Notes under the pieces: generated by a model
Database searches by the model: none
Seen by the model: only the letters and a program-made list of their open reading frames with translations
Told to the model about the DNA's origin: nothing
In this document: positions 8,668-51,636 of the stretch, piece by piece
Layout: each line of letters starts with the position of its first letter
How positions within the stretch are numbered: the stretch's first letter is position 1
Translations under genes and position numbers: made by a program
NCBI GenBank assembly: GCA_964364425.1
Contig: CAYIMB010000002.1
Location: 17,436-81,435, forward strand
From: an uncultured Gammaproteobacteria bacterium
GTDB lineage: Bacteria > Patescibacteriota > Patescibacteriia > UBA9570 > JBBTWU01
Length of the DNA: 64,000 bases
Reading direction: 5' to 3'

Positions 8668-8682
8668 GATTTTTGTCTGAGA

Positions 8683-9344: not shown

Positions 9345-9364
9345 GATTCCACTCTAGCAAAAAA

Positions 9365-9378: not shown

Positions 9379-9386
9379 AGGTGTAG

Positions 9387-9460
9387 TTCTACTCACAGAA
9401 TCAAATCGATTTTTACGGGATTTGATGCTCTGAGCAGAGGAGGATGGTTGGCGGTCCCAT
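9387..9460 (+). repeat. Direct repeat R2 (74 nt)
   Basis: See R1. Confidence 0.85.
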
Positions 9461-9476
9461 CACTCCCCGGAAGGTA

Positions 9477-10229: not shown

Positions 10230-10463
10230 GGGGTTCTCCCGGAGAATGAGTTTGGCCCTGAAGATGGCACCGAACTCAAGTGAAGGTCATTTCAAGCTGC
10301 GGTTGGCGTTTCTTAGGTACGTGTGAAACCTCCCCAAAAGCACTCAACACCCTTAGGGCAGGGCCAGCAAAAATACATGACAATCGAACCCTTGTCAATA
10401 ATGGGCCTTAATGCCAAAAACACTCAAAATTGGCTTGTCCTAAGGAAATCCACCCCAGTAGAC

Positions 10464-10491
10464 TTTACAAACTAAAAAATGTTGTTATAAT
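10464..10491 (+). promoter_or_regulatory. Putative tuf promoter TTTACA-16-TATAAT
   Basis: Hexamers read directly, about 60 nt upstream of the tuf ATG. Confidence 0.45.
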
Positions 10492-10550
10492 CAGCTTTGT
10501 GTTTCGAGATAATCGAAATTATTTTTACTTAATTCCTAAAGGGAACCTCA

Positions 10551-11741
10551 ATGGCTGACAAGTTTGACCGCTCAAAACCGCACGTCAACGTGGGTACCAT
10601 TGGTCACGTTGACCATGGAAAAACCACCACCACAGCTGCTATTTTAGCTGTGCTTAACGCTGTCGGCGGTAAGGCTCAACAGAAATCTGTTGACCAAATA
10701 GACGCTGCTCCAGAAGAAAAAGCACGTGGTATTACTATCAATACCGCTCACGTGGAGTATGAGACTGAAAAACGTCACTATGCTCACGTGGACTGTCCAG
10801 GTCACGCTGACTATGTGAAGAACATGATTACCGGTGCCGCCCAGATGGATGGGGCCATTTTAGTTGTGTCCGCCGCCGACGGTCCTATGCCTCAAACCCG
10901 TGAACACATCCTCTTGGCTCGCCAAGTCGGAGTGCCTTACATTGTGGTGTTCTTGAACAAAGTTGACCAAGTAGACGACCCAGAGTTGTTGGATTTAGTG
11001 GAAGTGGAAATTCGCGACTTGCTCAAGAAATATGAATTCCCAGGTGATGAAACACCAATGATCCGAGGGAGTGCCTTGAAAGCCTTGGAAAATCCAAAAG
11101 ATTCAGCGGCCAACAAGTGTATCTTGGACCTCATGAACGCCTTGGATACCTATATTCCAGAGCCAAAACGTGACGTAGACAAGCCTTTCTTAATGCCAAT
11201 TGAGGACATCTTCTCTATTGAAGGTCGTGGCACAGTGGTCACCGGACGGATTGAACGTGGCATGATCAAACTCAACGAAGAAGTGGAAATTGTGGGTTTG
11301 ACTCCAACCGCTAAAACAGTCGTGACCGGTATTGAAATGTTCAACAAACAGCTGGACGAAGGTCGTGCCGGTGATAACGCTGGTGTGTTGTTGCGTGGTA
11401 CCAAGAAAGAAGAAGTTCAACGTGGACAAGTCTTGGCAAAGACCGGAACCATCACTCCTCACACTGAATTTGAGACAGAAGTATATATTCTGTCCAAAGA
11501 AGAAGGCGGCCGTCACACTCCATTCCTAAAAGGCTATAAACCTCAATTCTACATGCGGACCACTGATGTCACAGGTGAGGTGATATTGCCAGAAGGAACT
11601 GAAATGGTGATGCCAGGTGACACCATGAAGCTCAGCGTTAAGTTGATTGCCCCAGTCGCCATGGAAGAACAACAACGCTTCGCCATCCGTGAGGGTGGTC
11701 ACACCGTAGGCGCCGGAGTTATTACTAAGATTCTCAAATAA
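10551..11741 (+). CDS. tuf: Elongation factor Tu
   Basis: GHVDHGKTT and DCPGHADY motifs. 396 aa. Confidence 0.95.
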
Positions 11742-30976: not shown

Positions 30977-30991
30977 GTGACTGCGTGAAGA

Positions 30992-31072
30992 AAGAGTGAC
31001 GGAAGCGGGGTCTGCGAAGCAGGGTGATTGAAGCTCCCGTATGAGCAGACCCCCGCTGAGTCACTATTTGGT
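30992..31072 (+). ncRNA. Candidate structured RNA/structured repeat, copy B (homologous to 3186-3268)
   Basis: See copy A. Lies between the ferredoxin stop and the TTGCAA-16-TATGTT box (31076-31103). Confidence 0.4.
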
Positions 31073-38483: not shown

Positions 38484-38646
38484 CATTTTAATACCAAGCT
38501 ACCTGTACACGCCCTTGCTTTTTTCCCTAAAAATAGAGTATATTTCTGTGTTCCCAAAGCCCTTTTGTTTGATGTAGCCATAAGTGCAGGATTAAAGTTA
38601 ATTTCCTGCCTTTCTGGCTACACCCATCACAAAAAGGAGGTGAGCG

Positions 38647-39093
38647 ATGCTGGCGACTGCACTGCCAACTGTGACCCTGAAGCCCCCCGCGGGTTTCGTC
38701 CACGATCAGCGTTCCCAGGGCTGGGAGCTCCTAGAAGAAGGCCCGAAGGTCGAAGGAGAGCCCATCCTGGACTTTCTAGGCTTCCTGCGGGAAGGCGAGA
38801 CCTACATCAACGGTGAGACCGTCCTTGCCCGCGCCCTCGAGATGGAAGGGACCGAGAGCGGTCAGCACCACCTCGAGCGGCTGCTCGCCCAGGCCGCCAG
38901 CATCCCCGCGGAGCTGCGCTCGTTCTACCTCGTCGCCACCGGCACCAAGTGGCGGTACCCCGACGGTTACGTGTGCGTCCCGTACCTGCGCTTCGTCGGC
39001 GGCCAGTGGGTCCTGCTCTTCTACGGGGTCGGCAACGACCGCTGGAGCGTCGGCGATCGGGTCGTCCGCGTCTGCAAGCAGCCTGGGTCCTAG
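38647..39093 (+). CDS. GC-rich small protein, cassette copy A (paralog of 50966-51400)
   Basis: Aligns along its whole length with copy B (…GW.L…GEP.L.F..FL..GET…MEG…H.ER.L…IP.ELR.FYLV..GT.WR…VP.L…). Consensus SD AAGGAGGTG. Confidence 0.6.
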   Translation: MLATALPTVTLKPPAGFVHDQRSQGWELLEEGPKVEGEPILDFLGFLREGETYINGETVLARALEMEGTESGQHHLERLLAQAASIPAELRSFYLVATGTKWRYPDGYVCVPYLRFVGGQWVLLFYGVGNDRWSVGDRVVRVCKQPGS

Positions 39094-39176
39094 GGTCTTC
39101 GGAGCCATGGAACTTTTGTTCCCTTTGGCTGCACGGGTCCCTTGGGTCCGTTCCGGCCGTTTTGCACATTCAACGC

Positions 39177-39244
39177 CCCTGTTTCGGAGGAACCTCTCCT
39201 GCGAGGTTCTTCTGGACAGGGGTGTTGTGTTTTCAGGGGGGCTT
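39177..39244 (+). terminator. Hairpin CCCCTGT...ACAGGGG + TGTTGTGTTTT in the conserved 3' tail of cassette A
   Basis: Tail 39094-39260 is homologous to 51401-51560. Confidence 0.45.
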
Positions 39245-39298
39245 TGCTACTTGGTGCAACAGACTGGTGGTGATACTGATGGGGAATCCCGCCTTGGT

Positions 39299-39308
39299 AA
39301 ATCGATTT
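39299..39308. repeat. AAATCGATTT palindrome (TAAATCGATTTA) between cassette A and asnS
   Basis: Exact palindrome. Confidence 0.9.
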
Positions 39309-39368
39309 ACAAGTAAGGAAACGGCTTTAACTAGACAAACTACGGCAAAATAGGCAGAATATGCAGGT

Positions 39369-40691
39369 ATGAACACAACTATTTCCGCTCTCCCAGAGTT
39401 GACTGGGAAAAGCGTTACTCTCCAAGGCTGGGTGTATAACTTCCGGAGTTCCGGTAAGATTTTTTTCTTGCAAGTGAGAGATGGGTCAGGTTTTGTGCAG
39501 GCTGTGGCCAGCAAGGCGGATATTTCTGCAGAATCCTGGGCGGCCTGTGAACAAGTCAGTATAGAAAGCTCAGTTGAAGTGACTGGTGTGGTGAAAGAAG
39601 ACACGCGCAGTGCTTCTGGTGTGGAGTTGGGCGTAACAGAAGTGAAGTTGATTCACGCCGGCCCAGAATGGCCCATTGGAAAAAAAGAACACGGGCCAGA
39701 ATTTTTGTTTGATAATCGAGATTTGTATTTGAGGTCTAAAACGCCCTGGGCTATCTTGCGCATTCGCGACCGAATATTTTTTTCTATAGAGCATTTTTTC
39801 CACGAAGAAGGATTTATCAGGTTTGATTCACCCATCATCCAACCCACGAGTTGTGAAGACACCACGCAACTCTTCACCGTGGACTATTACGGAACTCCTT
39901 CCTACTTATCCCAATCTGGTCAGCTCTACAGTGAAGCGGGGATTATGTCGTTTGGAAAAGTGTATGACTTTGGACCAGTCTTCCGCGCAGAAAAAAGTAA
40001 AACACGTCATCATTTGTCAGAATTGTGGATGATGGATGCTGAGATGGCATTCTTTGACCAACAGATGAACATGGATTTACAAGAAAAGATGGTGAAACGG
40101 ATTGTGAAAGATGTACTGGATCACTACAAAGTTGAACTGGCCATTCTAGAACGAGACACCACTATTCTGGAACGCCTAGTCAAAGAACCATTTGTACGCC
40201 TGACTCATGCAGAGGTCAAAAAGATGTTGAAAGACGAAGGGTTGGTTTCAGAGGTTGAACATACCGATGAAAATTACTGGGCAGATGATATGTCAACGGA
40301 AGCTGAGGTTGCTTTGGGCAACAAATATAAGCTTCCAGTGTTCATTCAAGATTATCCAGCCGCGGTCAAGTCGTTCTACATGAAAAAATACACAGATTCA
40401 GATGGAATGTTACGCGTTCGTTGTGCTGACTTGATAGCACCAGAAGAGGGGAGAGAAATCATTGGTGGCAGTCAACGTGAAGAAAGTTATGAACTGCTGA
40501 AACAAGAAATAATTGACCGCAAATATCCATTGAAAGAATACGAGTGGTACCTGAACACGCGCAAATTTGGAAGTGTCCCACACAGCGGATTCGGTATAGG
40601 ACTTGAGCGCACCGTTCGCTGGATCACCGGAACTCATCACATTCGTGAAACTATTCCGTTTCCTCGTATGCTTAACCGGATGAAACCCTAA
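39369..40691 (+). CDS. asnS: Asparagine--tRNA ligase
   Basis: FRAEKSKTRHHLSELWMMDAEMAF class II motif. 440 aa. Confidence 0.85.
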   Translation: MNTTISALPELTGKSVTLQGWVYNFRSSGKIFFLQVRDGSGFVQAVASKADISAESWAACEQVSIESSVEVTGVVKEDTRSASGVELGVTEVKLIHAGPEWPIGKKEHGPEFLFDNRDLYLRSKTPWAILRIRDRIFFSIEHFFHEEGFIRFDSPIIQPTSCEDTTQLFTVDYYGTPSYLSQSGQLYSEAGIMSFGKVYDFGPVFRAEKSKTRHHLSELWMMDAEMAFFDQQMNMDLQEKMVKRIVKDVLDHYKVELAILERDTTILERLVKEPFVRLTHAEVKKMLKDEGLVSEVEHTDENYWADDMSTEAEVALGNKYKLPVFIQDYPAAVKSFYMKKYTDSDGMLRVRCADLIAPEEGREIIGGSQREESYELLKQEIIDRKYPLKEYEWYLNTRKFGSVPHSGFGIGLERTVRWITGTHHIRETIPFPRMLNRMKP

Positions 40692-40695
40692 ACTT

Positions 40696-42441
40696 ATGCT
40701 CCGGACTCACACCTGTGGTGAATTAAGAAAAACACACCTTGGAAAAACCGTTCAACTTTCTGGCTGGGTCAACCGCGTCCGCAACTTAGGCGGCGTGTTG
40801 TTTTTGGAATTGCGTGACCGGTACGGTGAAACCCAAGTCTTGATTTCTCCAGAAAGAGATGAGGTTATGCACAAATTAGTTTTGGGCTTGTCACCAGAAT
40901 CTGTGATCCACGTTACCGGCACGGTAAAAGCCCGTGAAAAGCATGTGATAAATAAAGACATACCAACCGGTGAGATTGAAGTGGTTCCAGACCAGATAGA
41001 AGTGTTGAACTCCGCTAAGCCTATGCCGTTTGAAGTGAACGTGGAACGTGAACAGAGTGAAGATTTACGGTTGAAATATAGATATATTGATCTGCGTAGG
41101 CCTTCCATCCAGCGCAACATGATTGTGCGCTCTAACTTTATTAAAGCTATTCGTGATTTCATGCACGGCGAAGACTTTATAGAGGTGCAGACGCCTATCC
41201 TTACCGCGTCATCCCCAGAAGGCGCGCGTGACTTTGTAGTCCCTTCACGCATTCACCCAGGAAAATTTTACGCTTTGCCCCAAGCCCCACAGCAATACAA
41301 ACAACTCTTGATGGTGGCTGGGTTTGATAAGTACTACCAAATTGCTCCGTGCATGCGGGATGAAGACCCACGAGCTGACCGTTCACCCGGAGAGTTTTAT
41401 CAGCTGGATTTGGAAATGTCGTTTGTGGATGAAGAAGATGTGTGGGAAGTGGTTGAGCGCATGTCCCAATACGTAGTCAAAGAAGTGACGGATAAAAAAA
41501 TCTGGAAATTTCCGTTCCCTCGCTATTCATATGACGAAGTCATGTTGAAATATGGTTCAGATAAACCAGATTTGCGCTATGGTGTGGAAATTACAGATGT
41601 TACAGAGTTAGCCAAACAATCTGAATTTAAGATTTTCACCGCAGCAGAATGTATCCGTGCGTTGTCTGTCCCGGCAGAGTTAAGTCGTAAAGATGTTTCA
41701 GATTTAGAGTTAGTGGCCAAAGCCAACCACGCCAAAGGTTTGGCGTATGGAGTTCTCAAAGGAAAGACGTTTGAATCCAGTATTTCAAAATTCTTTACCC
41801 CAGGTCAGCAAGCTGAATTGATAGAAGTAGTAGGCGCCAAAGCAGGGGACACCCTGGTGTTTGTAGCAGATACTCCGGCTGTGTGCGCTAAAGCCTTGGG
41901 CGCAGTGCGTTTGGCTGTAGGCAAAAAATACCAGCTAGCTGATCCAAACGTTTTAGCCTTTGCTTGGGTGACAGACTTTCCATTCTTTGAATGGGGTGAC
42001 AGCGAAAACAAATTAGATTTCATGCACAATCCATTCTCAGCACCAGTTGGCGGTTTGCAAGCACTAAAAGAACAAGACCCGCTCACCATCAAAGCCAGGC
42101 AATATGACTGGATTTGTAACGGTTTAGAGTTGGCTTCTGGTGCTATCCGTAACCATGATCCAAAAGCATTGCTTAAAGCTTTTGAAATGGTGGGATATCC
42201 AGAGAAAGAAGTGCGAGCTAAGTTTGGTCATATGATGGAAGCCTTTGAGTTGGGTGCCCCTCCCCACGGCGGAATTGCCCCAGGCATAGACAGATTCCTC
42301 ATGGTTTGCTTTGGTTTTGAATACATTAGAGATGTGGTGCCATTCCCTAAGAATCAAAAAGCAGAAGATCCTATGATGGGAGCTCCGTCTGAGTTGAATG
42401 ACAAGCAGTTGAAAGACCTTCACATCAAACTGGAAAAATAA
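40696..42441 (+). CDS. aspS: Aspartate--tRNA ligase
   Basis: 581 aa AspRS homology. Confidence 0.9.
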   Translation: MLRTHTCGELRKTHLGKTVQLSGWVNRVRNLGGVLFLELRDRYGETQVLISPERDEVMHKLVLGLSPESVIHVTGTVKAREKHVINKDIPTGEIEVVPDQIEVLNSAKPMPFEVNVEREQSEDLRLKYRYIDLRRPSIQRNMIVRSNFIKAIRDFMHGEDFIEVQTPILTASSPEGARDFVVPSRIHPGKFYALPQAPQQYKQLLMVAGFDKYYQIAPCMRDEDPRADRSPGEFYQLDLEMSFVDEEDVWEVVERMSQYVVKEVTDKKIWKFPFPRYSYDEVMLKYGSDKPDLRYGVEITDVTELAKQSEFKIFTAAECIRALSVPAELSRKDVSDLELVAKANHAKGLAYGVLKGKTFESSISKFFTPGQQAELIEVVGAKAGDTLVFVADTPAVCAKALGAVRLAVGKKYQLADPNVLAFAWVTDFPFFEWGDSENKLDFMHNPFSAPVGGLQALKEQDPLTIKARQYDWICNGLELASGAIRNHDPKALLKAFEMVGYPEKEVRAKFGHMMEAFELGAPPHGGIAPGIDRFLMVCFGFEYIRDVVPFPKNQKAEDPMMGAPSELNDKQLKDLHIKLEK

Positions 42442-43145
42442 TGGGCGTAAGTTACAAACTGCAACAATTTGAAGGGCCCTTAGACGTGTTGTTGCGTTTG
42501 ATTGAAGATGAACAACTTACCATTACGGACGTAAGCCTGGCTCAAGTCACGGAACAGTTCATGCAATATCTCCAACAAATAGAACAAAGATACCCAGAAG
42601 AGCTGGCAGACTTTTTGGTGGTAGCGACCCGGCTCCTCCTGCTCAAATCCCAGGCTCTCCTGCCGTACTTAGTCATAGAAGAGGAAGAAGACCCAAACCA
42701 GCTCACGCGCCAACTCAAAATATACAAAGCCTACGTGGATGCCATGAAGTATGTAGCAGCCCGTCTAGCGTCTAAAGCGTTTTTGTATCAACGGACGTCC
42801 TCATTACTTTCTGGTATTGGTCCGGTATTTGCTCCACCGCCTGACACCAGCGCAGACGTTTTGCGCGAAGTATTTGAGCAAGTCCTAGACGAACTTGCTC
42901 CGGTGGTGCGTATTCCTAAAGCCGCCATAGAAAAAGTCGTCTCTCTGAGAGAAAAAATTTGTCATATCACCGACTTGATTGAAAAAGAAGCGCAACTCTC
43001 CTTCAAACATCTCATGTCCACGGCCGGATCTAAAACAGAGGTTGTGATAACCTTCCTAGCTCTGCTAGAATTGATCAAACAGCGCGTGGTCTGTGTGTCT
43101 CAAGATAAACCATTTTCCGACATAGTGATTCAAAAACCCGTATGA
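42441..43145 (+). CDS. scpA: Segregation and condensation protein A
   Basis: FEGPLDVLLRLI N-terminus. Confidence 0.8.
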   Translation: MGVSYKLQQFEGPLDVLLRLIEDEQLTITDVSLAQVTEQFMQYLQQIEQRYPEELADFLVVATRLLLLKSQALLPYLVIEEEEDPNQLTRQLKIYKAYVDAMKYVAARLASKAFLYQRTSSLLSGIGPVFAPPPDTSADVLREVFEQVLDELAPVVRIPKAAIEKVVSLREKICHITDLIEKEAQLSFKHLMSTAGSKTEVVITFLALLELIKQRVVCVSQDKPFSDIVIQKPV

Positions 43146-43732
43146 ACAATTTAACTCAAACCATAGAAAGTTTGCTCTTGGTGGAACCCAAAGGCTTCAG
43201 CTTAAAACGATTAGCAGGTTTAACTCAAGCCTCTGCAGATGAGGTGAGTGAAGCCGTAGCCGCTTTAGCCCAGCGTTACACGGAAATTCAATCCGGCTTG
43301 CGGTTAGTCCAAGACGGAAACCAAGTGCAACTGACCACCGGACCTGAATCCGCCGTTACCATTCAAGCCTATGTCAAAGATGAAACCTCAGGTGAGCTGA
43401 CCCGTCCATCACTTGAGACACTGACCATTATTGCCTACCGTGGCCCCATTCCAAAATCTGAACTTGAGCTGATCCGCGGGATTAACTGTTCACTGATCCT
43501 GCGCAATCTGTTGATCCGTGGGTTAGTTAGAGAAGAGGCGCAAAAGACCACAGGAGAATCCATCTACAGCGTCACCGTTGACTTCCTTCGTCTGCTGGGA
43601 CTCTCCTCTACCGCTGAGTTGCCAGAATTTGAGAAACTCAACCAAAATGTAGATCTGCAAACTCTGTTGGGTGAATCAGAACAAGAAAAAGATTTTTTCC
43701 TGGCCGGAAAACACCAGTCCAAACCAGAGTAA
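43142..43732 (+). CDS. scpB: Segregation and condensation protein B
   Basis: ScpB winged-helix homology. Operon with scpA. Confidence 0.75.
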   Translation: MNNLTQTIESLLLVEPKGFSLKRLAGLTQASADEVSEAVAALAQRYTEIQSGLRLVQDGNQVQLTTGPESAVTIQAYVKDETSGELTRPSLETLTIIAYRGPIPKSELELIRGINCSLILRNLLIRGLVREEAQKTTGESIYSVTVDFLRLLGLSSTAELPEFEKLNQNVDLQTLLGESEQEKDFFLAGKHQSKPE

Positions 43733-43754
43733 ATAAGTCTGTCTACCACCACGC

Positions 43755-44771
43755 ATGCTCAATCAATTTCTCATTAGTCTTACTTTGGCCGCGCATGTAT
43801 TAGGTTTAACTTTGCCCCAGGTTATTGAGGAAGGGGTGTATGTGGTACCTTCGCTCCTGACTCCAGCCACTGGTGATGTGACGGAACTCAGGGTATTACC
43901 CGCTGTGGTAGACGCCGTTTCACGTCAAGCAGAGCCAATTTCTTCGGTGGAATATCGATTTCTGCCGGTAAGCACCAACCGTCCACAACCTCCATACAAG
44001 GTAGGGACTTCCACCGGGCCTTTAGTGACTGCCAAGTCTGCCGTGTTGCTGGACCAGGCAACCGGAATGGTGCTGTGGCAAAAAAATCCCGACAGCGTGA
44101 GGCCCATTGCCTCCCTGACTAAATTAATGACGGCTGTGGTGTACTTGAAACACCAGCCCTTAGATGGAATGAATCATATTCACACCTTGGCTCCGGAAGA
44201 AAATGCCGTGATTGGGTACAACCTCACCTTTCCTTCCGGAACGCAACTCACCACCGGGTCTTTATTTGGCGCCATGTTGGTGGGCTCCTTAAATAACACC
44301 GCTCTGGCCTTGAATGGCGCGACTGGTTTATCTACAACAGAATTTATAGCCCAGATGAATCAGTTGGCAGAGGAGTTTGGAATGAGACGTACCACGTTTG
44401 TGGATCAGACTGGAGTGAATAACAAAAATGTGGCTACGGCCGGAGATGTGGCTGTGCTCGCTAAGCAAGCCTTTGCCGAGTCGGATATTAATCAGTTTGC
44501 GGATCAGACTTCACTTGAAGTGCGTGACGTGAGTGGTGAGAAGGTCCGCACCGTGCAAGCCACTAACCAGTTGGCCGGAAATACTGATGTTGAGTTGCAA
44601 GGGGCTAAGACTGGAACCACTGCAGAGGCCGGGTACTGTTATGTATTTCAGGTGGTGATAGAAGGTCATTCGGTGATAGGGGTGATTTTGGGTGCGACCT
44701 CGGATGAAAGTCGATTTTCAGATGCCATTAAGCTGATAGATTGGACTAGCCAACAATTTGATTGGAAATAA
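43755..44771 (+). CDS. D-alanyl-D-alanine carboxypeptidase (serine-type, S11 family)
   Basis: Signal peptide. SLTKLMT SxxK motif. Confidence 0.6.
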   Translation: MLNQFLISLTLAAHVLGLTLPQVIEEGVYVVPSLLTPATGDVTELRVLPAVVDAVSRQAEPISSVEYRFLPVSTNRPQPPYKVGTSTGPLVTAKSAVLLDQATGMVLWQKNPDSVRPIASLTKLMTAVVYLKHQPLDGMNHIHTLAPEENAVIGYNLTFPSGTQLTTGSLFGAMLVGSLNNTALALNGATGLSTTEFIAQMNQLAEEFGMRRTTFVDQTGVNNKNVATAGDVAVLAKQAFAESDINQFADQTSLEVRDVSGEKVRTVQATNQLAGNTDVELQGAKTGTTAEAGYCYVFQVVIEGHSVIGVILGATSDESRFSDAIKLIDWTSQQFDWK

Positions 44772-44815
44772 GTCCGTGAGCGGAGTATACTAGATGGAGA
44801 TTAATATTTTTTTAT

Positions 44816-45853
44816 ATGGCAAAAAAGATTCGCATTGCAATTAACGGGTTTGGACGAATTGGACGCACCACCTTTAAGGCGGCTTTGGAACATGAAAATG
44901 AAGTGGAAGTAGTAGCCTTGAATGATTTGGGTTCAGCGGAAAACATGGCCTACTTGTTGAAGTACGACACCAACTACGGGATATATGGACGTGAGATAGG
45001 ATTTGGTACAAATTTTTTGAGTGTGGACGGAAAAAAGTTTAGTTTGTACGCGGAGAAGGATCCTAAGAGGTTGCCCTGGAAAAAGCTCCAGGTGGATGTG
45101 GTGTTGGAATGTACCGGACGTTTTACCAACAAGGATGACGCCGGGAGGCATCTGACTGCCGGAGCTAAACAGGTGATTATTTCTGCGCCGGCTAAATCCG
45201 GAGGACCAATTGGTACGTTTGTGTTGGGCGTAAACGCTCACGCAGGCCGGGCTTGGAAAAAGGCCAAGGGAACAGAGGTGATCTCTAACGCCTCATGTAC
45301 CACTAACTGCATTGCTCCGGTGATGGCGGTGTTGGAGAGTGCCTTTGGAGTGAAGAAAGCACTCATGACCACGGTACATTCGTACACGGCGGATCAAAAC
45401 CTGGTAGATGGCCCACATACAGATTTCCGTCGCGGCCGTTCTGCCGGAGCCAACATAGTTCCTACTTCTACCGGGGCGGCTCTGGCCACTACAGAAACCA
45501 TCCCCAGCCTGAAAGGAAAATTTGATGGGATAGCCATTCGCGTTCCGTCCACTACAGGCTCTCTATCTGATATTACCGCCGTGGTGAAAAAGAAAGTGAC
45601 CGTTCAGTCAGTCAACGCTGCGTTCAAGAAAGCAGCTAAGAATCCGCTATTCAAAGGCATCTTAGCGGTGAGTGAAGAAGAGCTGGTGTCCAAAGATATT
45701 GTGGGTCGTCCGGAATCAGCGATTGTGGATTTGGCCTTGACCATGGTAGTAGGAGATGACCTGGTGAAAGTGTTTGCTTGGTATGATAACGAATGGGCGT
45801 ATTCGTTACGTTTGGTTGAAGAAGCCATCTTGGTGGGTAAGGCGGTTGCCTAA
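44816..45853 (+). CDS. gap: Glyceraldehyde-3-phosphate dehydrogenase
   Basis: NGFGRIGR and SCTTNC. Confidence 0.9.
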   Translation: MAKKIRIAINGFGRIGRTTFKAALEHENEVEVVALNDLGSAENMAYLLKYDTNYGIYGREIGFGTNFLSVDGKKFSLYAEKDPKRLPWKKLQVDVVLECTGRFTNKDDAGRHLTAGAKQVIISAPAKSGGPIGTFVLGVNAHAGRAWKKAKGTEVISNASCTTNCIAPVMAVLESAFGVKKALMTTVHSYTADQNLVDGPHTDFRRGRSAGANIVPTSTGAALATTETIPSLKGKFDGIAIRVPSTTGSLSDITAVVKKKVTVQSVNAAFKKAAKNPLFKGILAVSEEELVSKDIVGRPESAIVDLALTMVVGDDLVKVFAWYDNEWAYSLRLVEEAILVGKAVA

Positions 45854-45881
45854 TTTAGACAGGAGAGTACACTGGCGCGTT

Positions 45882-47489
45882 ATGGAAACTGAATTATCTA
45901 GACCCGGTATACCTAGACACAAACCCCAAGAGTTTGAGCATGTAGTCATGGTTGTGGTTCCAGAGGGAGCCATCCAAGCAGATTTGCAACAATTGGAGAA
46001 GCGCGGGGTGAAGGTGCGTGATCAAGTAGTCACGGTTGAATATGAATACGGAGATAACGACATGGCCCTGGCTGATTATCAGTTTTCAGACGGAGCGTTT
46101 TGTTTGGTGAAAAAGTATGATAGCAATGTGCATTGGCCGGATGTTGTGGCTGAAAAGAGCAAGGCACAAGAATGGGCCGGTGATGTTCCTTTTTTGGTCA
46201 AAAAGAAACCTGAGAGCATTTCAACTATCCCGTCTGAAGGCTCACGTTCGCCTGAACCGCCACCCCCTAGTCCGCCTCCAGCGCCGCCTCCTGAAACTCC
46301 ACCGGCCTCTCCCACCCCGCCTGAGTGGCCATCTTTTGAATCCGAGAGAGAGTGGGAGTTATTGCAAAGGTATTGGAGGTTAGTGGCTCAAATTGAAGAT
46401 GCCCAACTGAAGATAGAACAGGCAAAGATTACCGAACGGAGACAGGAAATTCCTATTCAAACACGACGTTTAGAGATTGGACAAAAAAATTTACAACAAT
46501 TTCTAGTTCATCATCCGGAGTACACAAACCTTCCCAAGCCTTTGGAGGTTGCCAGTATAGATTTAGCGAGCGTAGAGGGCAGGAGGCGAGCCAAGGCGTT
46601 GTTGTTAGATAGTGATTTATCTCCAGTCGAAGCGGGCAAGCGCATCATAGCCATTGAGAAGGCGGGAGCTAAAATCGAATTACATCATCCAAAGTTGGAA
46701 CAGGGAGTTGGCACCAGTGCTGTGCGGCCTCCGCTCAAAACGGTCATGACTGACTTGAAGGAGGCACAGTACCGTGTTGGCCGTTTGAATAGTTTAGGGT
46801 TGTTGAGTCAACTCCAACATGGGGACACCCGGCATAATAATTTGCTGCGCTTAAAATCCACACGCCAGAGTTTAGAATATATTTTAAAACGATTTTCACC
46901 TCCCCCTCACGCCGACTCCTCCCTTAGCCGAGATTTTTTAGCTTTGCTGCATGGAGTGGTGGACGCCGTGAAGAAGGTTGAACAAGGGACCCAAAAAAAC
47001 TTTTTGTCTCGCTGGTGGTCACAGAATGAACTGATTCAACAACACAGAAAAATTGGTCAGGGCTTAAAAAAGTTAGAACAATTTACCCAGGAACACAGGG
47101 AGTTTGTGTACGCTTGCGCCCAGATCGAATTTCAACTAAGGTGGGCCAACACTTGGAGTTTTCATGTTCTCCGTCACCGTCCAGCAGTTCTCCGCCTGGA
47201 ACATCCTGTACCTGTTCATGATCCTGCTCGGCACCCTGATCCTGCTGTCCGCGCTGGTCATCCAAGACTGGCTCTGGATGAACAGGGAGACCGGTGTCTC
47301 GGCAGGAACGGCAGTCATGAACTTGCGCTTCTGGCAGTTAGCCTCCTGCTTGGTGGGGATCTCCTCCGCCTACGGAGCAGTCCCGCCGGTGCTGTTTGTG
47401 ACCGTCCCGACCTGGTTCCTCCTGACCCGCATGGTCGGGATGCCCCTGAGCGCGGCCATGATCGCTGCGGCGTGGTATGTGGCGTGTAG
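45882..47489 (+). CDS. Hypothetical Pro-rich protein
   Basis: ATG 45882. After ~47160 the frame runs into GC-rich DNA and translates to Arg/Pro junk until a chance stop. Confidence 0.45.
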   Translation: METELSRPGIPRHKPQEFEHVVMVVVPEGAIQADLQQLEKRGVKVRDQVVTVEYEYGDNDMALADYQFSDGAFCLVKKYDSNVHWPDVVAEKSKAQEWAGDVPFLVKKKPESISTIPSEGSRSPEPPPPSPPPAPPPETPPASPTPPEWPSFESEREWELLQRYWRLVAQIEDAQLKIEQAKITERRQEIPIQTRRLEIGQKNLQQFLVHHPEYTNLPKPLEVASIDLASVEGRRRAKALLLDSDLSPVEAGKRIIAIEKAGAKIELHHPKLEQGVGTSAVRPPLKTVMTDLKEAQYRVGRLNSLGLLSQLQHGDTRHNNLLRLKSTRQSLEYILKRFSPPPHADSSLSRDFLALLHGVVDAVKKVEQGTQKNFLSRWWSQNELIQQHRKIGQGLKKLEQFTQEHREFVYACAQIEFQLRWANTWSFHVLRHRPAVLRLEHPVPVHDPARHPDPAVRAGHPRLALDEQGDRCLGRNGSHELALLAVSLLLGGDLLRLRSSPAGAVCDRPDLVPPDPHGRDAPERGHDRCGVVCGV

Positions 47490-47541
47490 CTTCGGCTACT
47501 TCTACTGCATCTACGCCCCGCGCAAGCTGCAGACTTTCTAG
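47164..47541 (+). CDS. GC-rich small membrane protein (4 TM)
   Basis: Convincing TM ORF in a different frame inside the GC-rich segment ~47160-47600. Confidence 0.5.
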   Translation: MFSVTVQQFSAWNILYLFMILLGTLILLSALVIQDWLWMNRETGVSAGTAVMNLRFWQLASCLVGISSAYGAVPPVLFVTVPTWFLLTRMVGMPLSAAMIAAAWYVACSFGYFYCIYAPRKLQTF

Positions 47542-47671
47542 GTCCGGGGAGCAGTTCGCACGTTTGAACGCGCCGAGATAGTAGGCAGTCAGCCTCTCTC
47601 GGTGCGTTCTTCAGTTTCAAAGTTTTTATGTTCACCAATCACCAGATTGGCCAGGTCCAAAAGTTATCCAT

Positions 47672-47695
47672 AAGACCGCGAAACGGTCTTTTTAC
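47672..47695 (+). terminator. Rho-independent terminator AAGACCG-CGAAA-CGGTCTT + TTT
   Basis: Read directly. Confidence 0.6.
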
Positions 47696-47707
47696 GTTTT
47701 TACCATG

Positions 47708-47717
47708 GTGACCCCAC
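47708..47717. repeat. GTGACCCCAC, 10-bp direct repeat of the tRNA-Glu 3' end (49368-49377)
   Basis: Exact 10-mer. Brackets the lower-GC AAA-ATPase segment. Confidence 0.4.
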
Positions 47718-47810
47718 TGCATGGTTTCCAGAACTAGTTAATCAAAGAGAGTATATATGGAGTTTGATTGAAAATCTACAGTCTGCGATGGTTGGAGGTA
47801 GTCAATAGTC

Positions 47811-47934
47811 CTATACAAAAAATACACTACTTTTATGCCTAAATTAGGCATTTTTATTGTGTAAATTATCTTTTGTATACTAGACTATACAAAAGATAAC
47901 ACTATCTGTATACTCTGTAGTATAAGGATAAAAT
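47811..47934. promoter_or_regulatory. AT-rich region with nested palindromes (TTATCTTTTGTATA-CTAGAC-TATACAAAAGATAA; GCCTAAATTAGGC; TATACT..AGTATA) upstream of the AAA ATPase gene
   Basis: Inverted repeats read directly. Operator-like. Confidence 0.45.
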
Positions 47935-49371
47935 ATGAATCAAATTCTACTGCAATATGTCCAAAACCAATTAGTTCGTGCCGGGCAGCGACTTAACGCG
48001 AATACTATTGATGCTCAGGGTAAAAAGTACCCACAACGCAATATCTACATCAAAATAAAAAAACACGTTGATGATTTTATAAGCGGAAAGTCATTAACGC
48101 GCTGGATAGTTATTCCGGGCCTGAGAGGTGTAGGGAAGACTACGGCTGTGTCTCAAATTTATTTTTACCTTACCCAAGATCAAAAAGTAAAAAGTAATAA
48201 TATCCTCTACACCTCACTAGATGAAGTCACAGATTTAGGTGGAAACCTACGAGAAGTTTTGGGAACATATGAGAAGGTACTTGGAAAGAGTTACGAGCAG
48301 CAGAATGAGCTCATTTTTATTTTACTTGATGAAGTGCAAGTTGACCCTAAGTGGGCATCAATACTTAAAATTCTTCACGAGAAATCAAAAAAAGTCTTTA
48401 TTATTTGTACTGGATCCTCTGCTGTAGAATTACAATCAAACGCCGATGCAGAACGACGAGCAATTTTTGAACGGTTATTTCCCATGAGTTTTACCGAATT
48501 TCAGATGGTGCAACGCGGCATATACCCCACAAAGGGACTGAAGTATGATTTACAACAAGCTTTGTATCAAGCATCTTCTGTAGAAGTAGCCTTTCAGAAA
48601 CTACAGGCATTAAACCAAGTAATCTTATCATACTGGTCAAAGGTTGATGAATTATCAGTTTCTGAATTTCTTAAAGTGGGGACACTCCCATTTGCGTTGA
48701 GCTATTCTGATGAATATCAGGTCTACCAAGCTATCAATCGTTTACTTGAACAGGTCATTGATAAAGATATCCGAGCACTTGGCAGTTTTAGTAATGAAAC
48801 GTTAAGTAAAATTAAACAGCTACTTTTTTTACTAGCAGATAGCAACGGTTCACTCGCTTTTTCAACCATCGCTAAGACTTTGGATATGCAACGACCAACT
48901 CTGAATAGCATCTTTGATGCCCTTGAAAAAACAGAGTTACTGATAAGAGCTTTACCACAAGGAGCAAACAATAAGCGAGTTACAAAACCATCTAAGTTTT
49001 TATTTATGAGCCCTGCTCTACGGTTAGCATTATTGAGTATTTCTGGACTCAAACAGACATTCGATACTCAACAAGGAGCTTTACTAGAAGATGTAGTAGC
49101 ATTGCATTACTATCGAGAGTTTGTAACAAAGCGTAAGGCTTCACTCATGTATGATGCAACTGAGGGTGGTGCAGACTTTATTGTGAATTTTATCCAACAC
49201 CGTAGGATTGTTGTTGAGGTTGGGATGGGGAGCAAAGATTCAAAACAAGTAGTGAAAACAATGAGTAAAGTTCAGAGTGATTATGGAGTAGTAATTAGCT
49301 CTACAGAACTAGGGGTTGATGAAATAAACAGAATAGTTTTTCTACCTATTAAGTTCTTTTTATTGATGTGA
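47935..49371 (+). CDS. AAA+ ATPase, COG1373/DUF4143-like
   Basis: Walker A GLRGVGKTT and Walker B LLDEVQ. Visibly AT-richer than its neighbours. Confidence 0.6.
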   Translation: MNQILLQYVQNQLVRAGQRLNANTIDAQGKKYPQRNIYIKIKKHVDDFISGKSLTRWIVIPGLRGVGKTTAVSQIYFYLTQDQKVKSNNILYTSLDEVTDLGGNLREVLGTYEKVLGKSYEQQNELIFILLDEVQVDPKWASILKILHEKSKKVFIICTGSSAVELQSNADAERRAIFERLFPMSFTEFQMVQRGIYPTKGLKYDLQQALYQASSVEVAFQKLQALNQVILSYWSKVDELSVSEFLKVGTLPFALSYSDEYQVYQAINRLLEQVIDKDIRALGSFSNETLSKIKQLLFLLADSNGSLAFSTIAKTLDMQRPTLNSIFDALEKTELLIRALPQGANNKRVTKPSKFLFMSPALRLALLSISGLKQTFDTQQGALLEDVVALHYYREFVTKRKASLMYDATEGGADFIVNFIQHRRIVVEVGMGSKDSKQVVKTMSKVQSDYGVVISSTELGVDEINRIVFLPIKFFLLM

Positions 49372-49440
49372 CCCCACCGGGAATCGAACCCGGATTTCAG
49401 CGTTGAGAACGCCGCGTCCTAACCGTTAGACGATAGGGCC
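49369..49440 (-). tRNA. tRNA-Glu (anticodon CTC)
   Basis: Cloverleaf folded by hand on the reverse complement. Anticodon loop TTCTCAA. T-arm CCGGGTTCGATTCCCGG. Confidence 0.75.
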
Positions 49441-49510
49441 ATGCCGCGCTAGACTATCCAAAAAGCTACCAACCGTCAAACCTGAACACTTAAATTCCTT
49501 AAGGATTTAG

Positions 49511-49526
49511 CTGTGCATACGCACAG
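49511..49526. promoter_or_regulatory. CTGTGCATACGCACAG palindrome (CTGT-N8-ACAG) upstream of rlmH
   Basis: Shares 22 nt with 8652-8670. Confidence 0.4.
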
Positions 49527-49544
49527 ATTACAACCAACAACTTT

Positions 49545-50018
49545 GTGTACTCATTTACCCTTCTCGTTGTCTCCGCTAGCAAGCCCGGTCCCTGGAAAGA
49601 CCTGGCGCAGGAATACCAGACGCGGCTGACTCCGTATGCCAAATGCAAATTGATTGAAATACCTCAAGCGGTTTTTTCTTCTGCAGCAGAGCGCCAGAAA
49701 GTGCAGGCGCAGGAGGCTGAGGTCTTAAGAAAATCGATCTCCAAGGGAGCATATACCGTAGCCTGTGATGAACGGGGGAAATTTTTCACCTCCACCCAGT
49801 TTGCGCAGCAACTCAAGACGTGGTCAGAACAAGAAACCAGAAACATCACGTTCCTCTTGGGCGGCCCGCTGGGCCTGCAACCTGCGTTGGTGCAAACGGT
49901 ACAGGCTAAGCTGGCCCTCTCCAGCTTTACTTTTCCACATGACCTGGCCCGGGTGGTTCTCCTAGAGCAACTCTACCGCGCTATGACCATCCTCAAAGGC
50001 AAAACCTATCATTACTAG
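49545..50018 (+). CDS. rlmH: 23S rRNA (pseudouridine1915-N3)-methyltransferase RlmH
   Basis: SPOUT family. C-terminal ...LEQLYRAMTILKGKTYH. Confidence 0.8.
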   Translation: MYSFTLLVVSASKPGPWKDLAQEYQTRLTPYAKCKLIEIPQAVFSSAAERQKVQAQEAEVLRKSISKGAYTVACDERGKFFTSTQFAQQLKTWSEQETRNITFLLGGPLGLQPALVQTVQAKLALSSFTFPHDLARVVLLEQLYRAMTILKGKTYHY

Positions 50019-50128
50019 CGGCGACTACGGTTGCGTTTGACAAAACAAAAAATAGAGAGCAGAACAAGCTTGGCGCAAACCTCTGCGCTCCTGGTCACAA
50101 GCCAGATTCTTACAACCCGGATCAACAG

Positions 50129-50653
50129 ATGTTGGCCCTGCTCCTGTCCGCCTGTTCCAAACTAGCGCTGGAGGACTGCACTGACCGCCACCACGAGCCC
50201 CGCAACTCCGACACGCACAGCACCTCCGACGGCATCTCGACCAACTCCACTCCGGCCGAGCAGGGTGCCCCCTGCCCTCAGCGCACTGACCAGCGCACGG
50301 GCAACGGGGCCATCACCCTGACCTTGGAGCTGGACAAGCCGGAAACCTTCACCCTGCGTCCGGTCACTGGCCTCACGGTGGAGGATACCTACACCGTCCC
50401 CAACACACACGTCCTGGGCTACAACCCGGAGACCGGGGCTGAGCTGTTCGTGGGGGAGCAGGCAGTGCTCTACTACTGCGACACTGACTTCTGGTTCTAC
50501 TGGGGCGATCTGGACGTGAACCACGTCATGGACTCGCGGGGGAGCGGCCTCTACCACAGCTCACAGCGGATGTACAACGAGGACAGCACCCTGCGTGAGA
50601 CCCGTCAGGTGGACTTCCGGATCCGCGTCACGGGCCTGGTGTTTCGCCAGTAG
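50129..50653 (+). CDS. GC-rich lipoprotein (lipobox LLSAC), unknown function
   Basis: Signal peptide plus Cys. GC-rich. Confidence 0.5.
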   Translation: MLALLLSACSKLALEDCTDRHHEPRNSDTHSTSDGISTNSTPAEQGAPCPQRTDQRTGNGAITLTLELDKPETFTLRPVTGLTVEDTYTVPNTHVLGYNPETGAELFVGEQAVLYYCDTDFWFYWGDLDVNHVMDSRGSGLYHSSQRMYNEDSTLRETRQVDFRIRVTGLVFRQ

Positions 50654-50965
50654 TTGCACCTTTGAGAGGACCTCCACTCTCAGTTCCATGTCGATTTTCA
50701 TGCGCAGAAAAATCGCCATAGAACTGTTCACCACTTGCTGGTGAATTACCGCCCAACGCTGAGTCTGCTGGATTGTGGTGCATGTAGTTTAGAATGTACG
50801 GTGATGCCCAAACTATGGACATTTCCTTCTGAACCTGCTATTATCCGGTGTCGCACTTTGATATTAAGCTATTTACAGTTGATTGCAGGCCTAAGGCCAT
50901 ATTTAACCCTATATAAGGGTTTTATGTGTATTTAGATCTGCAATCAAGCAGAAGGAGGTGTCCCC

Positions 50966-51400
50966 ATGAGCAGCCCCTTGGCGCTCCCTGGCATGAAGCT
51001 GAAGGCCCCCAAGGGCCTGATCTACGACAAGCGGAAGGAGGGATGGGCCCTCACCAAGGAGGGCGACCAGATCGAAGGTGAGCCCGACCTGGAGTTCGTG
51101 CCCTTCCTCCAAGGCGGCGAGACCGCCATCGTGGGAACCACCATGGTGGAACGCGCCGTCGCCATGGAGGGCCTCACCAGCCAGTACCACGCTGAGAGGA
51201 TGCTCCAGCAGCAGGACCAGATCCCGCCGGAGCTGCGGCCGTTCTACCTGGTCTTCGCCGGTACGGAATGGCGGGACTCCGACGGCGACCTCTGCGTCCC
51301 GTGCCTCTTCTGGTACGGCGACGAGTGGATCCTGTACTTCGACTGGCTCGCCCGCGGGAGCTGGGGCTCCCGCGCTCGGCTGGTTCGTCTCCGCAAGTAG
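50966..51400 (+). CDS. GC-rich small protein, cassette copy B (paralog of 38647-39093)
   Basis: See copy A. SD AAGGAGGTG. Homologous 3' tail 51401-51560. Confidence 0.6.
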   Translation: MSSPLALPGMKLKAPKGLIYDKRKEGWALTKEGDQIEGEPDLEFVPFLQGGETAIVGTTMVERAVAMEGLTSQYHAERMLQQQDQIPPELRPFYLVFAGTEWRDSDGDLCVPCLFWYGDEWILYFDWLARGSWGSRARLVRLRK

Positions 51401-51636
51401 CTTCGGCCCTTGGATCCTTTGGGAGTTGGCCCTTTTGGCTCCCTTGGATTCTTGGTCCGTTTTGTTCGCTTGCACCTTGGCTGTGCCCCCGTATGGACAG
51501 ATCTCACAAGGATCAGTTCAGCGGGGGTGTTGTCTTTTATATGAATATTGATACATAGGTGGGACTCCAACGATCGGCTGGTTTGTCTCCGCAACTCACT
51601 TCATTCTTCCGCCTCCATGGGCGGAGGTTTCAGGCG

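What the first reader, a model, noticed from the sequence alone, without database searches (positions are those of the whole stretch)
38647..51560. Two copies of a GC-rich gene cassette (gene + ~160-nt structured 3' tail), present in a lower-GC genome
38647-39093 and 50966-51400 encode proteins that align along their whole length. Both are visibly GC-rich with GC-ending codons, unlike the host. Both carry a consensus AAGGAGGTG Shine-Dalgarno, which host genes largely lack. Both are followed by homologous tails (39094-39260 vs 51401-51560) that contain a conserved hairpin + T-run (CCCCTG..CAGGGG TGTTGT(G/C)TTTT). Upstream regions are rich in inverted repeats (GCAGGA..TCCTGC; GATTGCAG..CTGCAATC; GGCCTAAGGCC; AACCCTATATAAGGGTT). 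Two compositionally foreign copies that retain a conserved non-coding tail suggest a recently mobile or horizontally acquired cassette of unknown function.
Basis: seen in the sequence. Interest (0 to 1): 0.8.

Follow-up and report, generated by a model that had tools for sequence, protein, structure and literature searches.

The report
Two orphaned DGR variable-protein genes
The two GC-rich "cassettes" are paralogous target genes of diversity-generating retroelements (the reverse-transcriptase systems that hypermutate a binding protein), stranded in a Patescibacteria genome after their reverse transcriptase and most of their template were lost. This is a known kind of element, with an unexplained GC-rich composition.

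Summary
ORF A (38647-39093) and ORF B (50966-51400) are 49% identical. Both are 66-67% GC (GC3 0.85/0.91), against a host background of 45.6% (GC3 0.48). Both have AAGGAGGTG Shine-Dalgarno sites that host genes lack, and both have structured, A-poor 3' tails.

They are not of unknown function. They belong to a large Patescibacteria family (1,538 clusters, no Pfam model). In 13 related loci the family gene is followed by a DGR reverse transcriptase. Twelve of those were tested for repeats, and each has a 124-138-nt template/variable repeat pair whose mismatches fall almost only on template adenines. One locus was checked for Avd and has it.

The last ~130 nt of each window ORF is the variable region. 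The tail is a segmented hairpin built from CTTGG repeats, followed by an intrinsic terminator. The same tail layout follows the gene in most related loci.

The window has no reverse transcriptase or Avd. It does keep debris: the 3' end of a template repeat with its hairpin after tail B (51560-51630), and a leader motif after tail A (39246-39257).

Best reading: two decayed DGRs whose target genes survive. One point remains unexplained: the target gene is a GC island in nearly all relatives, while the adjacent reverse transcriptase and Avd are AT-rich.

The parts
38511..38646 (+). Cassette A 5' region (promoter/5'UTR). It contains the inverted repeat GCAGGA(38587-38592)...TCCTGC(38604-38609) inside a longer hairpin at about 38573-38621, and the SD AAGGAGGTG at 38634-38642.
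   Evidence: Homology with L004 begins at 38511 although the neighbouring genes differ. The hairpin is kept in L004 with one-sided changes only. The region is 41% GC.
38647..39093 (+). ORF A, 148 aa: a DGR variable (target) protein family member. The ancestral TAG stop has become CAG (39083-39085), which adds 4 codons.
38948..39082 (+). Variable region (VR) of ORF A.
   Evidence: The nhmmer profile of TR regions from 12 complete DGRs aligns here, E = 2.7e-6. Adenine content is 10%. Hypervariable NNC-type codons are seen against relatives.
39094..39233 (+). Tail A: A-poor region with a segmented hairpin (about 39101-39132), then a long terminator hairpin CCCCTG(39176-39181)...CAGGGG(39217-39222) followed by TGTTGTGTTTT (39223-39233).
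   Evidence: Folding z = -5.3. 11% A. The same two-module layout occurs in relatives.
39246..39257 (+). GCTACTTGGTGC, a remnant of the conserved leader that lies about 100 nt upstream of the TR in complete DGRs.
   Evidence: It is the only exact copy in the window. The degenerate motif occurs exactly once, on the + strand, in 11 loci with a complete DGR and in L042, and nowhere else in the fetched loci apart from L003, the window's own contig. The weak nhmmer hit (E = 1.8) falls at the expected profile position.
50816..50965 (+). Cassette B 5' region. Promoter-like TGGACA-17-TATTAT (50816-50844). 5'UTR with nested inverted repeats GATTGCAG(50881-50888)/CTGCAATC(50938-50945), GGCCTAAGGCC(50888-50898) and AACCCTATATAAGGGTT(50905-50921). 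SD at 50952-50960.
   Evidence: Promoter scan. The region is conserved in L043 and L044, which sit in other genomic contexts. It is 41% GC.
50966..51400 (+). ORF B, 144 aa: paralogue of ORF A and member of the same DGR variable-protein family.
   Evidence: GC 66.4%, GC3 0.91.
51268..51397 (+). Variable region (VR) of ORF B.
   Evidence: nhmmer TR-region profile E = 5.3e-16 over 51262-51405. Differences from L043 cluster as codon doublets between invariant scaffold codons. 10% A.
51401..51538 (+). Tail B: CTTGG-repeat segmented hairpin (about 51404-51459), then terminator hairpin CCCCCG(51486-51491)...CGGGGG(51522-51527) followed by TGTTGTCTTTT (51528-51538).
   Evidence: Folding z = -3.4. 94% identical to the L043 tail, against 85% for the gene. 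10% A.
51560..51630 (+). Truncated template repeat: the last ~40 nt of the TR, which keeps the template adenines (TGGGACTCCAACGATCGG...GCAAC), plus the post-TR hairpin (CCGCCTCCatggGCGGAGG).
   Evidence: nhmmer E = 3.9e-10 to profile positions 305-377. 80% identical to the last 46 nt of ORF B; 4 of the 5 mismatches ahead of the shared GCAA end are at TR adenines. It matches the TR end and hairpin of complete DGR L045.

Best explanation
Each cassette is what remains of a Patescibacteria-type diversity-generating retroelement (DGR).

**How the intact element works, as seen in relatives.** The layout is: target gene, tail, promoter, conserved leader, template repeat (TR), hairpin, avd on the opposite strand, reverse transcriptase (RT). 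The TR transcript is reverse-transcribed with errors at adenines. The cDNA then overwrites the last ~130 nt of the target gene, the variable region (VR). This re-randomises a set of NNC codons on the C-terminal face of a small binding protein.

**What the tail is.** It consists of (i) an A-poor, CTTGG-repeat segmented hairpin just after the stop codon, and (ii) a strong intrinsic terminator. I take the hairpin to be the counterpart of the inverted repeat next to the IMH (the homing-initiation sequence at the VR's 3' end), which marks a VR as the homing target. The terminator separates the target mRNA from the TR transcription unit.

**State of the window.**
- RT and avd are gone.
- The TR of B is cut down to its last ~40 nt plus its hairpin.
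- Only a leader motif survives at A.
- The two intact ORFs are therefore probably frozen variants that can no longer be diversified from their own loci.

**Shown:**
- family membership;
- TR/VR/RT in relatives, and Avd in the one locus checked;
- the TR remnant;
- absence of RT and Avd from the window.

**Inferred:**
- the role of the hairpin;
- that diversification has stopped;
- that the proteins bind ligands.
For: - **Large family.** A profile search finds 1,538 cluster representatives. 35 loci were recovered from species-representative genomes, nearly all Patescibacteria.
- **RT in relatives.** 12 of those 35 loci have an RT with GNLTSQ...YADD lying 0.2-1 kb downstream on the same strand.
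- **TR/VR pairs.** All 12 have a TR/VR pair of 124-138 nt at 80-87% identity. 15-24 of 18-25 mismatches fall on TR adenines.
- **A complete relative.** L045 (46% identical to B) has RVT_1 plus bAvd/DivGenRetAVD on the opposite strand.
- **The window's VRs match the TR profile.** E = 5e-16 for B and 3e-6 for A. Positions 51560-51630 match the TR 3' end plus hairpin at E = 4e-10.
- **Leader motif at 39246-39257.** It is otherwise found once per locus, only in 11 loci with a complete DGR and in L042.
- **Independent decay.** L043 (78% identical to B) keeps the promoter and leader after an almost identical tail, but has lost the TR.
- **Tail architecture.** It is shared by most related loci. CTTG[GA] occurs 43 times in the first 60 nt of 26 tails, against 10.7 +/- 3.1 in shuffles.
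- **Variation pattern.** VR differences between B and L043 are codon doublets between invariant scaffold codons.
Against: - No RT, Avd or full TR lies in the 64 kb. The DGR assignment therefore rests on homology and remnants, not on a working element here.
- The rest of the genome could not be searched. The RT search returned 8,000 or more hits without usable locus tags.
- The remnant at A is only a 12-mer, with a non-significant profile hit (E = 1.8).
- The GC richness of the whole gene is not explained by DGR mutagenesis. A3 and T3 are depleted about equally in the non-VR part.
Confidence: 0.75

Rival explanations
1. A and/or B are still active remote targets. A complete DGR elsewhere in the same genome would supply RT, Avd and a matching TR in trans and keep diversifying them.
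For: - Both ORFs are full length, with intact VR ends and an intact tail hairpin and terminator.
- Remote targets exist in this family. The single TR of L011 matches the VRs of L018, L019 and L041 in the same MAG, with 19/21, 19/20 and 13/15 mismatches at adenines.
- Tail B is more conserved than the gene. That would fit a cis element still in use.
Against: - VR-A and VR-B are only 68% identical, and they differ at many scaffold positions. One TR could not serve both.
- Each locus carries debris of its own TR unit. This indicates two originally self-contained DGRs.
- No RT lies within 64 kb.
- Wu et al. [quoted passage not shown]
Confidence: 0.18
2. This is the first reader's reading: a recently acquired foreign GC-rich cassette of unknown function, imported from a GC-rich donor. 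The tail would be part of a new mobile unit.
For: - GC3 of 0.85-0.91, and strong SD sites in a host that does not use SD.
- Different flanking genes in relatives.
- Several other unrelated GC-rich ORFs lie in the same window.
Against: - The function class is identified.
- No homologue was found in a clearly GC-rich lineage outside Patescibacteria-type contexts. The family gene exceeds its flanks in all 35 loci, by a mean of 12 points, whatever the host.
- In complete elements RT and avd are AT-rich (L045: target 62%, avd 37%, RT 33%, flank 35%).
- The cassettes' own 5' regions are 41% GC.
- No terminal repeats, target duplications or recombinase were seen.
Confidence: 0.05
3. An integron-like gene cassette, with the tail acting as an attC-type recombination site.
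For: The unit is a promoter-proximal small ORF followed by an imperfect inverted repeat of roughly attC size.
Against: - No integrase was seen among the ORFs examined.
- The cassettes are single and are not arranged in an array.
- The tail ends in a T-run terminator.
- In relatives the tail is followed by TR and RT rather than by another cassette.
Confidence: 0.01

Closest known systems
Patescibacteria (CPR) diversity-generating retroelements, architecture B3 [target - TR - (avd, reverse strand) - RT] of Wu et al. 2018 (PMC5758913); DGR clade 2 of Roux et al. 2021 (PMC8144416)
   Same: - Relatives of ORFs A and B sit in this architecture. L045 has a reverse-strand avd, and 13 loci have the RT downstream of the target gene on the same strand.
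- The VR lies at the 3' end of a small target gene.
- TR/VR mismatches are adenine-specific.
- The VR end differs from the TR end just before the stop codon, as IMH and IMH* do.
- An inverted repeat lies downstream of the VR.
   Different: - In the window the RT, avd and nearly all of the TR are missing, so only the target modules and debris remain.
- The inverted repeat is a long segmented hairpin built from CTTGG repeats with many G-U pairs. It is not a short GC-only stem.
- The target family has no Pfam or NCBIfam model.
DGR variable proteins with a C-type-lectin fold (Mtd of Bordetella phage BPP-1, TvpA of Treponema denticola)
   Different: - There is no detectable sequence similarity.
- Foldseek is not significant.
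- At 144-148 aa the protein is only a single domain.
- No signal peptide or anchor is evident.
Remote (non-adjacent) DGR targets, e.g. Treponema denticola (Wu et al. 2018, PMC5758913)
   Same: A target gene far from any RT. This is demonstrated within this family for one MAG: L011 with L018, L019 and L041.
   Different: In the window each gene keeps remnants of its own TR unit, and the two VRs could not share one TR.

Membership tests
DGR variable (target) protein family | Sequence homology to proteins whose 3' end is a VR paired with a TR | tested here: met
   Family HMM against ORF A gives E = 1e-75 and against ORF B 5e-65. 12 homologous loci have TR/VR pairs with adenine-specific mismatches. 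L045 has a full TR-region profile match (E = 3.5e-105), a reverse transcriptase and Avd.
DGR variable (target) protein family | VR at the 3' end with hypervariable codons of NNC type between invariant scaffold codons | tested here: met
   The family alignment shows hypervariable columns. Differences between B and L043, and between A and L004, are codon doublets. VR adenine content is 10%. The TR profile aligns to both VRs.
Complete (autonomous) DGR | DGR-clade reverse transcriptase gene (GxxxSQ ... YxDD) in the locus | tested here: not met
   No motif-bearing ORF in the window. No RVT_1 among the large ORFs. tblastn with 11 RTs gives a best E of 0.32.
Complete (autonomous) DGR | Full-length template repeat matching the VR except at adenines | tested here: not met
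   Neither blastn nor an adenine-aware scan finds a full TR. Only a 3' TR fragment of about 40 nt is present at 51560-51598.
Complete (autonomous) DGR | Accessory protein Avd | tested here: not met
   tblastn with the L045 Avd gives a best E of 5.9.
Complete (autonomous) DGR | VR-end element (IMH, the homing-initiation sequence) followed by an inverted repeat | tested here: inconclusive
   The VR and TR ends diverge just before the stop codon (GCAAG-TAG against GCAAC-TCA). A hairpin follows in 19 of 26 tails at z < -2. An unbiased alignment gave no consensus structure, and function is untested.
Active remote DGR target | An RT and a matching TR elsewhere in the same genome | not testable with these tools
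   Only this contig of GCA_038062635.1 was reachable. The RT homologue search was saturated at 8,000 hits.
C-type-lectin fold | Significant structural similarity of a confident model to CLec domains | tested here: inconclusive
Integron gene cassette | attC site plus IntI integrase and a cassette array | not tested
   No attC model was run. No recombinase appeared among the ORFs examined. The architecture in relatives argues against it.

The most novel reading that the evidence does not exclude
The GC island that coincides with the target ORF is present in 32 of 39 loci, and is usually the only island within +/-8 kb. The RT and avd of the same element are AT-rich. The A-poor CTTGG-repeat hairpin is more conserved than the gene. 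Together these could reflect an undescribed, target-specific feature of Patescibacteria DGRs. One possibility is homing-linked GC-biased conversion, or selection on the target mRNA. Another is a new VR-recognition element that also lets RT-less target modules persist and spread as stand-alone cassettes.
Probability: 0.2. Interest if true: 0.6.

Novelty: new member of a known kind. Interest (0 to 1): 0.35.

Why it matters
- **It resolves the oddity.** A striking compositional feature turns out to belong to a known system. DGRs are abundant in Patescibacteria, and these are two decayed examples.
- **It gives an annotation handle.** The family has at least 1,500 clusters of small hypothetical proteins and no Pfam model. 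It can be recognised by the pattern YLVFPGTxWR...RLVRxRK followed by a TAG stop and a CTTGG tail.
- **It gives concrete examples of how DGRs die.** Independent deletions removed the TR, RT and avd, while the target gene and its 3' element were kept.
- **The open point.** The target gene is 8-27 GC points above both its host and its own RT. This may say something about how homing or expression constrains these genes, and it can be tested on existing DGR catalogues.

Tried and rejected
- **Pfam and NCBIfam** on ORFs A and B gave nothing.
- **Rfam** on the whole window and on both cassettes found only two tRNAs and chance-level hits.
- **First genome-contig scan** with the narrow alignment A3 found nothing. 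The broad alignment A4 was too diverse to make search patterns. Subfamily alignment A5 worked.
- **Viral contigs:** no relative found, so there is no sign of phage carriage.
- **Metagenome scan:** one extra locus only.
- **Adenine-aware scan for a full TR** in the window found none.
My reading of compensatory changes in that hairpin comes from individual folds and is not a formal covariation test.
- **RT search** meant to find an RT of the same MAG was saturated and uninformative.
- **Foldseek against PDB** was not significant.
- **Adenine-specific erosion of the whole gene** (RT copying the target mRNA) was rejected as the cause of GC richness. A3 and T3 are about equally depleted outside the VR.
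- **Amino-acid composition** was rejected as the cause. The excess is mainly at GC3 (+0.185), against +0.02 at GC2.
- **Chimeric assembly** was rejected. The same architecture recurs in independent assemblies.


Full report
**1. Origin of the window.** The window is identical to part of contig JBBTWU010000023 of a Patescibacteria MAG, GCA_038062635.1. It carries core genes:
- the rpsL-rpsG-fusA-tuf and ribosomal-protein operons;
- AsnRS, AspRS, ScpAB and GAPDH;
- hrcA-grpE-dnaK, among others.

Background GC is 45.6%.

**2. Check of the observation.**
- ORF A (38647-39093, 148 aa) and ORF B (50966-51400, 144 aa) are 49% identical over their whole length, E = 1e-45.
- Both sit in GC islands of 62%.
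- The ORFs are 66.7% and 66.4% GC, with GC3 0.85 and 0.91. Eight host genes have GC3 0.48.
- Both have AAGGAGGTG 5-6 nt before the ATG. Only about 3 of 50 host ORFs show any SD-like motif.
- The tails align to each other at 51% identity, with conserved blocks.
- Both tails fold much better than shuffles, z = -5.3 and -3.4.
- The upstream inverted repeats exist and are conserved in homologous cassettes.

The terminal stem differs between the copies (CCCCTG/CAGGGG against CCCCCG/CGGGGG). That is a compensatory change.

**3. What the genes are.**
- Neither protein matches Pfam or NCBIfam.
- A word-indexed search found only 13 close relatives, all metagenomic.
- A full profile search found 1,538 cluster representatives at E <= 1e-3. 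Many have an extra N-terminal stretch of about 50 aa, and some are tandem fusions.
- The family alignment shows a conserved core (W-L-E..., GQxHAE, IPxExR, YLVFPGTxW). The last ~45 residues alternate invariant scaffold positions with hypervariable columns filled by Y/D/H/R/G/N/S/C/F. These are the residues coded by NNC.
- Foldseek against PDB is not significant, so the fold call is tentative.

**4. The decisive evidence comes from relatives.**
- A scan of species-representative genomes returned 35 loci, nearly all Patescibacteria MAGs.
- In 12 of them an ORF with the DGR reverse-transcriptase hallmarks GNLTSQ...YADD lies 0.2-1 kb downstream on the same strand.
- In all 12 the last 124-138 nt of the family gene has an 80-87% identical repeat between the gene and the RT. 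15-24 of the 18-25 mismatches fall on adenines of the downstream copy. This is the template repeat / variable region (TR/VR) signature of diversity-generating retroelements.
- A further relative, L045 (46% identical to B), has RVT_1 and an Avd gene on the opposite strand between TR and RT. Pfam bAvd scores 59 bits against a cut-off of 40. NCBIfam DivGenRetAVD scores 75.5 against 80.
- This is the TR-(avd)-RT "B3" architecture. Wu et al. 2018 report it for 90% of CPR DGRs (PMC5758913). Roux et al. 2021 describe a DGR clade restricted to Patescibacteria (PMC8144416).
- The RT clade is very large: 8,000 or more homologues at E <= 1e-30.

**5. What the tail is.** In most related loci the sequence after the stop codon (TAG in most) has two parts:
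- (i) An A-poor stretch rich in CTTGG/CTTGA.
- (ii) A strong hairpin followed by a T-run.

After the T-run, complete elements continue with a promoter-like AT-rich stretch, a conserved leader (...GGATAGTAGGY......AATGAAGCTACTTGGTGC...), the TR, and a short hairpin.

Points on the CTTGG stretch:
- CTTG[GA] occurs 43 times in the first 60 nt of 26 tails, against 10.7 +/- 3.1 in dinucleotide shuffles (maximum 23 in 1,000 shuffles).
- In many loci the repeats form a segmented hairpin: GG...CC helices separated by T-rich bulges.
- The helix sequences differ between loci while pairing is kept. For example the outer stem is GGATCC/GGATCC, GGAGCC/GGCTGC or GGGGCT/AGCCCC.
- 19 of 26 post-stop 62-mers fold with z < -2.
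- An unbiased MAFFT/RNAalifold test failed because of the repeats. The covariation is therefore my reading of individual folds, not a formal result.

By position, this hairpin corresponds to the inverted repeat downstream of the IMH (the homing-initiation sequence at the VR's 3' end). That repeat promotes homing in the Bordetella and Legionella DGRs (Wu et al. 2018, PMC5758913). This is an inference.

The second module is an ordinary intrinsic terminator. It ends the target transcript ahead of the TR unit.

Tail B is 94% identical to the tail of L043, whereas the genes are 85% identical and the 5' regions 83%. The tail is therefore under constraint.

**6. State of the two loci in the window.**
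- There is no RT, Avd or full TR.
- A profile built from the TR regions of the 12 complete elements hits VR-B (51262-51405, E = 5e-16) and VR-A (38948-39082, E = 3e-6).
- It also hits 51560-51630 (E = 4e-10), aligned to the last ~40 nt of the TR plus the post-TR hairpin.
- That fragment keeps the template adenines (TGG GAC TCC AAC GAT CGG...). VR-B has other bases at those positions (TGG GGC TCC CGC GCT CGG...). It lies just before the hrcA promoter and CIRCE element.
- After tail A, GCTACTTGGTGC (39246-39257) is an exact copy of the leader motif. The degenerate form of that motif occurs once per locus, and only in 11 loci with a complete DGR and in L042.
- L043, a close relative of B in a different genomic context, keeps the promoter and leader after the tail but has no TR. 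This is an independent decay path.

So both loci are remains of once self-contained DGRs. The ORFs are intact and full length. ORF A has read through its ancestral TAG, now CAG, by four codons.

**7. Are they still diversified in trans?**
- Remote targets are real in this family. One TR (L011) matches three other VRs of the same MAG with adenine-only mismatches.
- However, VR-A and VR-B are 68% identical and differ at scaffold positions, so one TR could not serve both.
- I could not search the rest of the genome. This remains the main rival.

**8. Mobility.**
- Homology between A and L004 starts 136 nt upstream of the ATG and ends in the tail, yet the neighbouring genes differ.
- B and L043 share the 5' region and the tail in different contexts.
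- The dprA/Rieske/DUF5671 locus holds an A-type gene in L001 and L005 and a B-type gene in L044.
- I saw no terminal repeats or recombinase.
- The modules have clearly been exchanged or relocated, by an unknown route.

**9. The unexplained part: GC richness.**
- The family gene is GC-richer than its flanks in all 35 loci. The mean excess is 12.2 points, Wilcoxon p = 2e-7, and gene GC correlates with host GC at r = 0.62.
- In 32 of 39 loci the gene forms a GC island. Other islands make up only 2.5% of 432 kb of flanking sequence.
- The excess is mostly at third codon positions: +0.185, against +0.10 at GC1 and +0.02 at GC2.
- Outside the VR, A3 and T3 are depleted about equally. This rules out adenine mutagenesis as the cause.
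- In the window the island starts at the ATG, and the cassettes' 5' regions are 41% GC.
- RT and avd of the same elements are at or below host GC. In L045 the target is 62%, avd 37%, RT 33% and flank 35%.
- Simple import from a GC-rich donor does not fit these facts.
- Candidate causes are recombination-linked GC-biased conversion or selection on the coding mRNA. I could not discriminate between them.
- I found no description of this in the papers consulted. Wu et al. mention only GC-rich segments flanking the mutagenic part of the TR/VR, and atypical GC of whole DGRs.

**10. Verdict.** The finding is real and is explained by a known system: two orphaned DGR target genes of the Patescibacteria type, each with vestiges of its template unit. 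It is a new, unannotated member family of a known kind. The GC-island property and the CTTGG tail are modestly interesting side results that can be checked on existing catalogues.

Noticed in passing
window 3187-3266 (+) and 30991-31070 (+): A structured element of about 78 nt occurs twice, in the 5' regions of a small membrane-protein ORF and of the pyruvate:ferredoxin oxidoreductase alpha gene. The copies are 85% identical. Of 26 predicted pairs, 5 show compensatory double changes between the copies. The apical sequence GCAGGGTGATTGAAGCTCCCG is invariant. There is no Rfam match. It is a candidate new cis-regulatory RNA.
   Followed up: partly
window 1975, 4408, 5038, 8159, 8545, 9403, 35829, 39299: The palindrome AAATCGATTT occurs 8 times exactly, against 0.11 expected. 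With up to 1 mismatch it occurs 20 times, against 3.0 expected. Most copies are intergenic and next to accessory or GC-rich genes. One lies at the distal end of cassette A. A similar CAAATCGTTTAAC follows the tails in L005 and L044.
   Followed up: partly
window 3865-4404 (-), 4474-4935 (-), 9477-10229 (-), 50129-50653 (+), 47154-47619: Further GC-rich islands (60-67% GC, GC3 up to 0.88) are unrelated to the DGR family. They include two paralogous ORFs between rpsG and fusA, a lipoprotein-like ORF with a MopE metal-binding motif between fusA and tuf, and a lipoprotein-like ORF just upstream of cassette B. Some have strong SD sites. Their origin is unknown.
   Followed up: partly
window 2262-11741: The normally compact rpsL-rpsG-fusA-tuf operon is interrupted by about 1.9 kb and about 3.4 kb of inserted accessory genes. 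These include a member of a three-copy paralogue family (236-1099, 1068-1976, 7294-8160) whose proteins end in a conserved PLPDR-type motif (PLPDRPHV / PLPERPHV / PLPDRSTL).
   Followed up: no
window 8530-8602 and 9388-9460: A 73-nt direct repeat, 99% identical, brackets two small minus-strand genes (8683-9344). It contains the AAATCGATTT palindrome. It may be a duplication or an insertion boundary.
   Followed up: no
whole window: Host genes almost never have a Shine-Dalgarno sequence. Many starts are preceded by A-rich ...AAACAC(C/T)-like sequences. The DGR target genes here have strong SD sites, as do several target genes in other Patescibacteria loci.
   Followed up: partly
window 47935-49440: A low-GC (37%) AAA_14/DUF4143 ATPase gene abuts a tRNA gene on the minus strand (49369-49440). 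It lies between a GC-rich segment (47154-47619) and the GC-rich ORFs upstream of cassette B, so this stretch is a compositional patchwork.
   Followed up: no
L001, L002, L004, L008, L044 (contig ends): Several independent assemblies break within or just after the tail of the family gene. This would be expected if VR/TR repeats or VR population heterogeneity fragment the assembly graph.
   Followed up: no
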